NCBI GenBank assembly: GCA_963693365.1
Contig: CAVNZM010000018.1
Location: 1,049,861-1,113,860, forward strand
Direction of reading: 5' to 3'
Length of the DNA stretch: 64,000 bases
Source: Amoebidium appalachense
Taxonomy: Eukaryota; Protista; Ichthyosporea
Positions 44,915 through 54,232 of the stretch are shown here, piece by piece; the first letter of the stretch is position 1, and every line of letters begins with the position of its first letter. Both the position numbers and the translations under genes were made by a program. Below the pieces are notes generated by a model, which saw only the letters and a program-made list of their open reading frames with translations, did no database searches and had not been told where the DNA came from.

Positions 44915-47900
44915 TCAGTAGTCATTCATGGCTGCGGGGGAGGACAAGGTCAGTGGATGGTGCCACTAGCCAGTCTAGCGGTGCCTGTTACCATGCACAC
45001 ACACGGAACACACAGCCTGCGGCCGGGCAAAAAAACTGTATTCCGTGTACACAAAAACCTGAACAGTGTAATATGCTCCGGTTCGCCTAATTGCTTCACA
45101 TGAACGCGAGAATACATCGCTCATGCATACACACACACACACACACACAATTAAACTTGCACACGGTGCACACTCAGAGGGAGACATGGGAGGAGGGAGT
45201 GCTGGGGGGGGGGGGGGGGGGGGGAGCGATGTGGAGCATAGAAACATACTCTTGCCCGCAAGCACACGCACACCGTAGCATACACACACACACACACACA
45301 CACACACACACACACACACACACACACACACACACATACACACAAGCAGGGCGCACACACACACACACACACACACACACACACACACACACACACACAC
45401 ACACACACACACACACACACACACACACACACACACCTGCATGGCGGTGGTCCCTCAGACTCATGCCCCCAAGTACCTGCTGCATACTCTGCAACCATAG
45501 GTCAACCCCCCCCCCCCCCCCCCAAAAAAAAAAAAAAAAAAAAAAAAGACGAAGAAAAAGAAGTAGAAGAAGAAGAAAAACTTCAGAAAAAAAAAAAAAA
45601 AAAGGAAAAGCAGCCAGGAAAGGGGGGAAACAAGAAAGGGAGAGAGAAAGGGAGAAAGGAAAGGAACAGAAACTTAAAAACGATCAGGGATTTTGGGGTG
45701 ACAGCCAGGTGCGGTGGTCTATTGCTGGTCCCGGCCGACCATGATCTCTGTGGGAGCCCATCTCAGTACCTATTTGATCTGGCCCTCCTTTGAACCCACA
45801 ATTCCCACAACAAAGTGACACCCACACCCACACCCCACACACACACACACACACACACACACACACACACACACACACACACACACACACACACACACAC
45901 ACACACATTGCACTGGACACATAAATTCGATACTCAAACCCCCCCTCCCCCCTCGCCGCCTGCGCCGCTCCCGCCATACCCCTCCTTCACCCCCTCCCCC
46001 TCCTCCCCCCCCCCCCCCCCCCCCCCCCCAAAAAAAAAAAAAAAAAAAAAAAAAAAACACACACACACACACACATACAGACACACCAACATGATGCCCA
46101 ACAGACAGACACCAAGCACCCAACCACGACACCAACCCCTCCCCCCCCCCCCCCCCCCCCACCACCACCCATCCACCCACACCCCACACATACAGACACA
46201 CACACACACATCCCCCCCCCTCCCCCTCTCTTCCCACTCCCTCCCCTTCGCCCCCCCCCCCCCCCCCCCCCCCCACACACACACACACACACCTGCACTG
46301 TGTGCTGTGCCTGTGGCTCTGTGTATGCCTCCAGCAGACGAACCACTGCACGTTGTCTGCCCATGTGTGCCCTGCACCCTGCCTTTTCAGCTTCCCCCCC
46401 CTCCCCCGCCCCTTCTTCCCCCCTCCCCCTCTCTCCCCCCTTTTCCCTTCGGATGGGCACATACCAGCCTAGGGCTGTATGGCCTTGGCTGTCTGTCTGG
46501 CTAAGGGATGCACCAGACTCAAGAAGACACTCAACAAAACGTAGCCACCCAAAGATAGCAGAGAGGTGGAGTATAGTCTGGGGGATTTAAAGGGTGTTAG
46601 AAAATCATATGGCATGCATGGGTTGCGAAAACACATCGGATCATGGGCTATGATAACATTCATGTGCCCACAGGACACAGTATCAGAGTACACAACCAAG
46701 ACATGCACACCGAACGCACACACACACACACACACACGACACAAGCACACGGTAAACACACACACAAACACACACACATAGCGGACACATGCATGCGCAC
46801 AATGAACACACACACACACAGACACACACAGAGACACACACACACACACCCAACACATGCACACACACACACACCACACAAAACTTACACACACACCCAA
46901 CACATGCACACGGCACACACCCACCCACCCACCCACCCACACACACCCACACACACACACCCACCCACACCCACACACACACACACACACACACCATACA
47001 TACCCAGCCAACCACGTGCACCTACCATGCCTGACTGGGTAACAGGTGGCAGGGTGTGTCTGCGGCCCAAAGCAGCCAACATGATATGAACTAGAGGGTA
47101 GAGTTTAGACTGCAGCCCATGGAGATGTGGCATGTCCTGCACGTGCACATGGTTAGTGCACGGGCACACACGTACACACACAGGCACACAGGCGCACAGA
47201 AGCACATGTGCGCTCTAAGCTCGCCACACATGCACACACGCATACAGAACACACACGGGCACGACTTAACATGCACACCGGAACACACATGAGTTGCGCT
47301 GAACGTTCATATGCGCAGGGTGTTCGTGCTTGAGACATGCACATCCACATGCAGGCACACACACACACACCCGGCCAGACACACGCAAGCACATGCGCAC
47401 GTGCATCTGCACAGACACGTGTGCAAACAGGCATGCATGTGCACACCCACCCACCTGTGCACCGTGACTGCTGTGGATGCCTGCCAGCAGTGAACCCAAT
47501 GCCCCCCCAGGGTGTCTTCACTCTCAGCCACTGCACACACACACCGTCAGAACTTGAGCGGGTGGGAGGGAGGTGGGTGTGTGGGTGTGTGTGTTGGGGG
47601 GGGGGGGGGGGGGGGGGGGGGGGGGAGAGGTGGGAGGATGAGGGAAGAGAGGGGAACGGACGGAAGGAGGGTAGGCGGGGGGAGGGGGGGGGGCTCATGG
47701 GCAACTGGACTACCTTGAACACACTGAGGTGACTTTTGTTGAGAAATCCGGATTTGGAAAGAGTGGGGAAACACAGAGCAGTCAATAGGAACAAGGTTGG
47801 ACAGTGTTTACATTTATTTGCGCATTGGGTTTGTGTACATGTGTATGCATGTGTGTACGTGTGGGTCTGAATTCCATGTGTGTGATTGTGTGTGTGTGTG

Positions 47901-53900: not shown

Positions 53901-54232
53901 TGGTCGGGCACGGGACAGCGCGCAACCACCTGCATACCACACGGTCAGCACAGCCGCACATGAAAGATTATCCTGATGCAAGTTCTGTCTCAACACCCAT
54001 GCACAGTCTACCCCTCCCCCCCCGTCCCTTCCCCCCCCCCCCCCTCTCCCCCCCCCCCCACACACATATATATAGACCCCACACCCACCCCACACCCATC
54101 ACCCAAAATCACCACCTGAAAGGGTGCCGGCAGAGACTTGTTGCAGCGCCAGTGGCTGGGAAGGGCGGTAGTGAGGAAGTTTTTGTTGTCGGTGGTCTGC
54201 AGCCCCTCCCCTGAGTCCTCGTGTCGGCCCAT
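44915..54232 (-). CDS. RUNX: Runt-domain (RUNX-like) transcription factor with an IPT/TIG-like domain and two ankyrin repeats; in-frame TAG at 53894-53896 (exons 54232-54116, 53929-53773, 52919-52791, 51917-51825, 51377-51283, 50847-50764, 50370-50316, 49702-49582, 48427-48310 or -48343, 47530-47455, 47090-47026, 46577-46465, 46371-46293, 45488-45437, 44931-44915)
   Basis: Runt: [176 protein letters not shown]. All intervening GT-AG exons link in compatible phase (~445-456 aa). The Runt call is certain. The terminal exons, the start and the exon-9 donor are less certain. Confidence 0.8.
48802..49005. repeat. 52-bp minisatellite (~4 copies) in an intron of the Runt-ANK gene
   Basis: Unit TTCATTTTTCATTGGGGACTAAGACGAAGAATGCACGAATGCTCACCTTAAT repeated in tandem. 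Confidence 0.9.
49771..50310. repeat. (CA)n array punctuated by CACGTG
   Basis: Repeated CACACACACGTG units of variable length. Confidence 0.9.

What the first reader, a model, noticed from the sequence alone, without database searches (positions are those of the whole stretch)
44915..54232. A Runt-domain transcription factor with an NF-kB-like layout: Runt + IPT/TIG + ankyrin repeats
Seen in sequence: walking GT-AG exons from the Runt exons gives one phase-consistent frame of ~15 exons that reaches two clear ankyrin repeats ([56 protein letters not shown]). The middle reads [16 protein letters not shown]...[10 protein letters not shown]...[15 protein letters not shown]...WFTVPP...[12 protein letters not shown]. 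By eye this parallels the Rel-homology IPT domain (NF-kB 'IVRMDRTAGCVTGGEE'; NFAT5 'EAEIDMELFHQ..IVKVPP...VGIYV'). Established: animal RUNX proteins have a Runt domain plus a low-complexity tail ending in WRPY. The layout DNA-binding domain + IPT + ANK belongs to NF-kB p105/p100, CAMTA and fungal Spt23/Mga2. No WRPY is seen here. Inference: a RUNX that could dimerise through its own IPT domain and be held in check or processed through its own ankyrin tail. I am not aware of this architecture being described.
Basis: partly seen in the sequence, partly recalled or inferred. Interest (0 to 1): 0.92.

Follow-up and report, generated by a model that had tools for sequence, protein, structure and literature searches.

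The report
RUNX gene with ankyrin tail, stop-broken
An intron-rich, probably non-animal genome carries RUNX DNA-binding exons followed on the same strand by ankyrin-repeat exons, likely one gene with a layout not found in the RUNX proteins or papers searched, but this copy has a stop codon inside the DNA-binding domain and the proposed middle dimerisation domain is unconfirmed.

Summary
The Runt domain (three exons covering Pfam positions 7-128) and the ankyrin exons are real, lie on one strand, and no WRPY is present. The gaps between them look like this genome's introns, so one ~15-exon, 474-codon gene is likely (~0.8), but no RNA confirms it and many other chains are also phase-consistent.

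The copy is a recent nonsense allele or an assembly error; the Runt domain is otherwise well conserved.

The IPT call got no support from Pfam, PDB, ESM Atlas or a 42-domain bacterial TIG profile. No eukaryotic control was available, so it stays a by-eye call (~0.55).

New here: two RSxSxP (14-3-3-type) motifs in the linker next to a basic cluster, changed CBFbeta-contact residues, and a Runt domain grouping with six unnamed environmental fragments apart from named animal RUNX.

No glycine-rich region, membrane anchor or IQ motif, so the layout is nearer Spt23/Mga2 or CAMTA than NF-kB p105. No Runt+ankyrin protein was found in the databases or papers searched. Verdict: new variant of RUNX, single broken copy; interest 0.58.

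The parts
54116..54232 (-). Exon 1, Runt domain start; an upstream exon is possible (CA repeat and a weak acceptor just upstream)
   Evidence: Pfam Runt 7-40, E 1.3e-6
53773..53929 (-). Exon 2, Runt core
   Evidence: Pfam Runt 42-92, E 7.5e-16
53894..53896 (-). In-frame TAG, codon 51 (RUNX1 L102 column); also a weak in-frame TAG acceptor that would drop 12 codons
52791..52919 (-). Exon 3, Runt end plus basic cluster RVPRRRR (52827-52807), candidate nuclear localisation signal
   Evidence: Pfam Runt 94-128, E 2.5e-9; NLS role inferred
51825..51917 (-). Exon 4, low-complexity linker; acceptor weak and uncertain
   Evidence: splice scores -4.6/4.6; no coding-bias support for the longer version 51917-51805
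51283..51377 (-). Exon 5, linker with RSTSNP (51330-51313), 14-3-3 mode-I type motif
   Evidence: came out of the splice-graph search; coding score in top 5% of null; motif
50764..50847 (-). Exon 6, linker with RSNSLP (50802-50785), second 14-3-3 type motif
50316..50370 (-). Exon 7, start of the beta-rich middle domain (putative IPT)
   Evidence: splice sites; no coding-bias support; IPT by eye only
49582..49702 (-). Exon 8, middle domain
   Evidence: coding score reached by 1.3% of null frames; no Pfam or PDB hit
48310..48427 (-). Exon 9, middle domain; donor 48310, 48331 or 48343 (all give phase 0)
   Evidence: no Pfam, meaningful PDB or Atlas hit
47447..47530 (-). Exon 10, end of middle domain; strongest donor is 47455, which needs a 20-nt microexon (47298-47279) to keep frame
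47026..47136 (-). Exon 11, hydrophobic segment leading into the first ankyrin repeat
   Evidence: no Pfam or PDB hit
46465..46577 (-). Exon 12, ankyrin repeat 1 and start of repeat 2
46293..46371 (-). Exon 13, rest of ankyrin repeat 2 (by eye)
45437..45488 (-). Exon 14, short tail
   Evidence: splice scores 9.0/12.5; coding score reached by 3.7% of null
44915..44931 (-). Exon 15, last codons and TGA
   Evidence: acceptor score 11.8
44230..44914 (-). Repeat-free 685-nt stretch with AATAAA at 44567 and 44529: likely 3' UTR and boundary before the TBC gene

Best explanation
Three Runt-domain exons and two ankyrin exons lie on one strand and are likely one ~15-exon gene whose intact product would be a CBFbeta-independent, probably phosphorylation-gated RUNX transcription factor, but this copy has an in-frame stop at codon 51 and is likely a recent nonsense allele or an assembly error. 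SHOWN: Runt domain with the nine DNA-contact positions checked all kept (roles recalled), a basic cluster right after it, two RSxSxP motifs 31 residues apart, an ankyrin repeat, no WRPY, the stop. INFERRED: (1) the exons splice into one mRNA (~0.8); (2) the Runt domain binds RUNX-type sites without CBFbeta, since T161, Y113, M106 and G108 equivalents are changed; (3) the ~115-125 aa beta-rich middle is an IPT domain that dimerises the protein and so could stand in for CBFbeta (~0.55); (4) phosphorylation of the two motifs lets a 14-3-3 dimer bind beside the basic cluster and hold the protein in the cytoplasm until dephosphorylation; (5) the two ankyrin repeats bind a partner or fold back, and are probably not removed by p105-style processing.
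For: Runt and Ank profile hits. 49 of 62 columns conserved in >=90% of homologs are kept; R80, K83, R135, R139, R142, K167, D171, R174, R177 equivalents kept. All 9 gaps between exons 3 and 12 have simple-repeat fraction 0.38-0.97 and longest unique run 18-366 nt; 6 of 6 gene boundaries have unique runs of 396-1340 nt. RSxSxP: 2 of the 7 occurrences in 127,996 six-frame positions fall in frame in the linker; 0.055% of 200,000 linker shuffles give two; 0 of 124 fetched Runt proteins >=248 aa have one, 94 of 124 end in WRPY/W. T161 is T in 126 of 136 and G108 is G in 191 of 196 other homologs but Y and H here; N109, T161, Y113, M106 are residues mutated to break CBFbeta binding (PMC5668496, passages). 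Mga2 has DBD-IPT-Ank, and its DBD alone did not bind DNA, perhaps for want of IPT dimerisation (10.64898/2026.08.31.748402, passages). TAG is a true stop: the 184-codon ARL2 ends on it.
Against: No transcript evidence. The IPT call failed every quantitative test: 42-domain bacterial TIG HMM -0.3 bits with no domain placed in the middle, hhalign reached by 5-12 of 30 shuffles, pairwise z -0.4 to +0.1 against 6-23 for bacterial controls. Exons 4, 6, 7, 10, 11 and even ankyrin exon 12 show no significant coding bias. Phase at exon 10/11 needs a non-best donor. Neighbour introns have unique runs up to 779 nt, overlapping the boundary range, so the intron test is not sharp. N109, Q158, V159, A160 are kept, and Y113 and M106 vary in animals too. 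The motif was spotted after the fact. No relative with this layout was found.
Confidence: 0.5

Rival explanations
1. One gene, but decaying: a pseudogene whose Runt-to-ankyrin chain is no longer made, so the layout tells about the past and not about present function.
For: In-frame TAG; phase mismatch at the best exon 10 donor; weak coding bias in several 3' exons; no RNA holder found.
Against: Only one stop in 474 codons; DNA-contact residues kept; most splice sites intact. A zinc-ligand His codon in the neighbouring zinc-finger gene also reads as Asn (57815), so scattered point errors or recent mutations are not confined to this gene.
Confidence: 0.2
2. Two genes: a short RUNX ending in intron 8 (near 49370, where a weak acceptor, a stop and ATTAAA coincide) and a separate small ankyrin gene starting near 49.3 kb or in exon 11.
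For: Intron 8 is the largest gap (1,154 nt, unique run 366 nt, ATTAAA at 49368). Cryptic acceptors leading to stops exist in introns 3, 4, 5, 8, 9 and 10. Many chains are phase-consistent.
Against: That acceptor scores 2.4 against 11.4 for exon 9's. No gap resembles the repeat-free boundaries of 579 and 685 nt. It would cut the beta-rich middle region in two.
Confidence: 0.17
3. NF-kB/Mga2-like precursor: the ankyrin tail inhibits the factor and is removed by partial proteasomal processing that stalls at the IPT domain.
For: Domain order matches Mga2 and p105, and the Mga2 work suggests IPT itself is the stop signal and may be general. Non-animal NF-kB-like proteins keep RHD, GRR and ANK (PMC8763368, parts 1-2 of 4).
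Against: No GGG run, no [LP]PxY motif, no transmembrane segment (best 19-residue hydropathy 1.55, in the Runt domain); only two repeats and a 33-residue tail; IPT unconfirmed.
Confidence: 0.08
4. The stop is bypassed in vivo, by splicing to the TAG itself as an acceptor (dropping 12 codons), by readthrough or by RNA editing, so the gene is functional as written.
For: The TAG is an in-frame acceptor scoring 1.9, inside the 1.2-11.8 range of the gene's CAG acceptors.
Against: The skipped residues are conserved Runt positions 42-53; the upstream CAG acceptor scores 7.3; Trp, the product of A-to-I editing, is seen in 0 of 198 homologs at this column; TAG terminates ARL2.
Confidence: 0.05

Closest known systems
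Animal RUNX1-3 / Runt / Lozenge (Pfam PF00853)
   Same: Full Runt domain, 60-62% identity, DNA-contact positions kept; fetched animal fragments break at the same places as exon 2's ends.
   Different: No WRPY; no RunxI hit in the exons scanned; changed CBFbeta-contact positions; C-terminal ankyrin module; RSxSxP pair absent from 124 fetched RUNX; groups apart from named animal RUNX; premature stop.
Fungal Spt23/Mga2
   Same: Beta-rich DNA-binding domain, then IPT, then ankyrin domain; the short ankyrin module is recalled as similar.
   Different: DNA-binding domain is Runt; no transmembrane anchor or PY motif; IPT not confirmed here.
CAMTA (CG-1, TIG, ANK, IQ)
   Same: TIG followed by a short ankyrin module (layout recalled; one search was a listing only).
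   Different: Runt in place of CG-1; no IQ motif after the ankyrins. I could not compare sequences with CAMTA directly.
NF-kB p105/p100 and their unicellular homologs
   Same: DNA-binding domain, dimerisation domain, C-terminal ankyrins (PMC8763368).
   Different: No Rel DNA-binding domain, no glycine-rich region; basic cluster sits after the Runt domain, not after the putative IPT; two repeats only.
Unicellular holozoan RUNX (Capsaspora, Creolimax, Chromosphaera, some choanoflagellates)
   Same: RUNX outside animals is known; ichthyosporean genomes are large, intron-rich and repeat-rich, as this window is.
   Different: None of the passages read mentions IPT or ankyrin on these proteins; I could not fetch their sequences, and the 2011 primary survey is not held.

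Membership tests
RUNX | Runt domain | tested here: met
   Pfam positions 7-128 over three exons
RUNX | DNA-contact residues (R80, K83, R135, R139, R142, K167, D171, R174, R177; roles recalled) | tested here: met
   9 of 9 identical
RUNX | C-terminal WRPY (animal members) | tested here: not met
   none in three minus frames; 94 of 124 fetched RUNX have it
RUNX | CBFbeta-binding surface | tested here: inconclusive
   T161, Y113, M106, G108 changed; N109, Q158-A160 kept
RUNX | Open reading frame through the Runt domain | tested here: not met
   TAG at 53896-53894
RUNX | Binding to RUNX DNA sites | not testable with these tools
   needs EMSA or SELEX
NF-kB p105/p100 | Rel homology DNA-binding domain | tested here: not met
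   the domain is Runt
NF-kB p105/p100 | IPT / RHD dimerisation domain | tested here: inconclusive
   no hit per exon; no signal against 42 bacterial TIG domains; no eukaryotic control
NF-kB p105/p100 | Glycine-rich region before the ankyrins | tested here: not met
   no GGG run; Gly 6% in the pre-ankyrin segment
Spt23/Mga2 | Ankyrin module | tested here: met
Spt23/Mga2 | Transmembrane anchor and Rsp5-binding PY motif | tested here: not met
CAMTA | CG-1 domain and IQ motifs | tested here: not met
   no CG-1 hit in the exons scanned; no IQ-like match in the tail
14-3-3 clients | Mode-I RSxpSxP motifs in a disordered region (consensus recalled) | tested here: met
   two motifs, shuffle frequency 0.00055; binding itself untested

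The most novel reading that the evidence does not exclude
The gene belongs to a non-animal RUNX branch (the six environmental fragments it groups with) in which Runt+IPT+ankyrin is the normal, possibly ancestral, form. RUNX would then have started with the same DNA-binding/IPT/ankyrin plan as NF-kB, Spt23/Mga2 and CAMTA, dimerising through its own IPT and gated by 14-3-3, and animals would have replaced this with CBFbeta and the WRPY tail.
Probability: 0.12. Interest if true: 0.9.

Novelty: new variant of a known kind. Interest (0 to 1): 0.58.

Why it matters
Animal RUNX needs CBFbeta for tight DNA binding and uses WRPY for repression (established knowledge, recalled); how RUNX worked in unicellular relatives is open. 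A RUNX carrying its own interaction modules and a candidate phospho-switch gives a direct, testable answer, and would add RUNX to the families built as DNA-binding domain, IPT and ankyrin. The value is limited for now by one broken copy, no transcript and an unconfirmed middle domain.

Tried and rejected
Genetic-code change (TAG read as a residue): rejected, ARL2 ends on TAG after 184 codons (the usual ARL2 length is recalled). A-to-I editing to Trp: 0 of 198 homologs have W.

RNA: 18 runs listed, best share 0.07; 0 contigs laid on exons 1-2 in 4 of 4 runs. The small shares probably come from simple repeats and are no evidence either way. The ankyrin exons remain untested against reads. No whole genome is held.

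Homolog searches: exon 2 alone, 1 candidate and none scoring. 84 representatives: 82 have Runt, 0 of the 82 show Ank or TIG, but most are short fragments. 120 listed of 2,405 longer hits: none with Ank, nearly all named animal; the other 2,285 were not seen. 80 kept of 159 metagenome loci: animal-like, best C-terminal tblastn E 0.56. Ankyrin pair: one weak generic hit among 237 candidates. Viral contigs: none.

IPT: 46 TIG matches in 7 of 10 prokaryote genomes; 42 used, 4 dropped (three short, one with a stop); many come from two genomes. No signal (one search's script failed). Single-sequence AlphaFold of the ankyrin pair with its intron: pLDDT 57, uninformative, so no fold search was run.

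Splice matrices came from 20 donors and 18 acceptors, at least two acceptors mis-set, so scores are rough. The 863 neighbour codons were picked as open frames and do not measure error rate.

Papers: searches gave 0 papers; others listed none on Runt with ankyrin by title or abstract start. 'Runt' and 'Runx' occur 0 times in the supplement of PMC8763368. For PMC6040629, files 13-16 of 16 were not searched. bioRxiv supplements are closed. Earlier scan findings: nothing relevant.

Full report
Setting. The window is an intron-rich eukaryote with microsatellite-filled introns. Neighbours are a C2H2 zinc-finger gene, a Rab-GAP TBC gene, an Arf-family gene (ARL2-like), an RrnaAD-family methyltransferase (TFB1M-like) and a PDZ gene (the specific gene names are my recall). 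No whole genome is held. A unicellular holozoan, perhaps an ichthyosporean, is an inference from the presence of RUNX, the genome style (PMC11286789, passages) and the tree below; it was not tested.

Observation. Three minus-strand exons tile the Runt profile from position 7 to 128 and are 60-62% identical to the best animal RUNX. Exon 46577-46465 is an ankyrin repeat by Pfam (E 5.1e-4, just under cut-off), PDB search and ESM Atlas; the second repeat is by eye. There is no WRPY-like motif. A 15-exon chain of 1,425 nt and 474 codons can be built.

The missed stop. Exon 2 holds an in-frame TAG at 53896-53894, codon 51, the RUNX1 L102 column. TAG is a stop here: ARL2 ends on it after 184 codons. 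The column is variable: L 103, V 37, Q 17, K 16 and others, W 0 of 198; it is E in 4 of 6 of the closest-grouping fragments, one base from TAG. The rest of the domain keeps 49 of 62 strongly conserved columns, so the lesion is recent or an error. A His ligand codon of the third finger in the next gene reads AAC, a second G:C-to-T:A change at a conserved site if the stop came from GAG. My rough split: real recent nonsense 0.5, assembly error 0.4, bypass 0.1.

One gene or two. Phase consistency proves little: 1,089 candidates give many stop-free chains, and the best exon 10 donor gives the wrong phase. Better evidence is the character of the gaps: the 9 gaps from exon 3 to exon 12 are 38-97% simple repeat with unique runs of 18-366 nt, whereas 6 of 6 gene boundaries have unique runs of 396-1340 nt, and the stretch after exon 15 is repeat-free with two AATAAA. 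Neighbour introns reach 779 nt of unique sequence, so the ranges overlap. Intron 8 is the best place for a break. No RNA evidence was obtained. I put one gene at about 0.8.

Middle domain. It is 115-126 residues depending on the donor, with 29% beta-favouring residues against 14% in the linker. By eye its start and end resemble the TIG consensus built. No test supports this: Pfam, PDB and Atlas per exon gave nothing; an HMM of 42 bacterial TIG domains placed no domain there; hhalign and pairwise scores sat within shuffles, while bacterial controls gave z 6-23. Transcription-factor IPT domains could not be fetched as a control, and the spliced region could not be sent to Pfam or AlphaFold, so the result is a negative of low power. 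With the contextual prior (DNA-binding domain, IPT, short ankyrin module in Mga2), I put IPT at about 0.55.

Linker. Exon 51377-51283 came out of the splice search before any motif was noticed. It and the next exon each carry RSxSxP in frame. Seven such motifs occur in all six frames of the window; 0.055% of 200,000 linker shuffles give two; 0 of 124 fetched RUNX have one. RSxpSxP as the 14-3-3 mode-I consensus is recalled, and the motif was spotted after the fact. A basic cluster follows the Runt domain. This suggests phosphorylation-dependent cytoplasmic retention, and supports these exons being coding.

CBFbeta. N109, T161, Y113 and M106 have been mutated to break CBFbeta binding (PMC5668496, passages). 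Here T161, Y113 and M106 are changed and N109 is kept; G108, which is G in 191 of 196 other homologs, is H here and non-G in 7 of 7 of the divergent fragments. That CBFbeta is animal-specific is recalled; the Capsaspora supplement lists CBF_beta in tables whose headings I did not read.

Tree. With 41 fetched Runt sequences chosen by hand, the window's domain groups with six unnamed environmental fragments (P0008, P0028, P0046, P0047, P0077, P0205) at 97/91, apart from named animal RUNX. The bootstrap had not settled, two of the six fill under half the columns, there is no named non-animal row or root, and long-branch attraction is possible. Their C-termini are unknown.

Comparison and novelty. 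It is a RUNX by its defining domain, and it fails membership of NF-kB, Spt23/Mga2 and CAMTA while resembling their plan. It has no glycine-rich region, membrane anchor, PY or IQ motif, so precursor processing is the less likely control. No Runt+Ank protein appeared among 82 Runt representatives, 120 of 2,405 longer hits or 80 loci; these sets are dominated by animals and fragments. Ten literature searches showed no description. Read: PMC8763368 parts 1-2 of 4 and a supplement term search; passages of 10.64898/2026.08.31.748402, PMC11286789, PMC6040629, PMC8061703, PMC5668496, PMC11345852, PMC13042239, PMC4739763, PMC3753549 and supplement term searches of three of them. The 2011 survey of Capsaspora transcription factors is not held, and most subscription papers are not searched.

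Verdict. A real and unusual locus: probably one RUNX gene with an ankyrin tail and a candidate 14-3-3 switch, seen once, in a broken copy, with the IPT part unproven. New variant of a known kind; interest 0.58.

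Noticed in passing
window 57815 (- strand; gene ~58352-57522): Apparently single-exon six-finger C2H2 gene; the first His ligand of finger 3 reads Asn (AAC) and finger 6 lacks its last His.
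   Followed up: partly
window ~1600-8700: A ~2.35-kb block repeated three times in tandem (similarity 0.996 and 0.91 between successive copies); recent duplication or assembly artefact.
   Followed up: partly
window 27567-28145: TFB1M-like (-) and ARL2-like (+) genes start head to head 579 nt apart on repeat-free DNA: a likely bidirectional promoter.
   Followed up: no
window 46372-46464: The 93-nt intron between the ankyrin exons is in frame and stop-free, so retention would insert 31 residues into repeat 2 without a frameshift.
   Followed up: partly
window 48802-49007: Four near-identical copies of a 52-bp AT-rich unit inside intron 8.
   Followed up: no
window 1-831 (+); 16612-16319 and 16123-15908 (-): Open frames without a Pfam hit; the first is Leu/Cys-rich.
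   Followed up: partly
window ~32900-33740: Long (GA)n tract studded with GATCTA variants in the ARL2-TBC intergenic region.
   Followed up: no
window ~60520-60900: Degenerate array of ~20-bp units with inverted copies upstream of the zinc-finger gene; possibly a small transposon relic.
   Followed up: no
P0008, P0028, P0046, P0047, P0052, P0077, P0205: Unnamed environmental Runt fragments, all non-Gly at G108 and with Leu at Y162 where covered; possibly an unannotated non-animal RUNX branch.
   Followed up: partly
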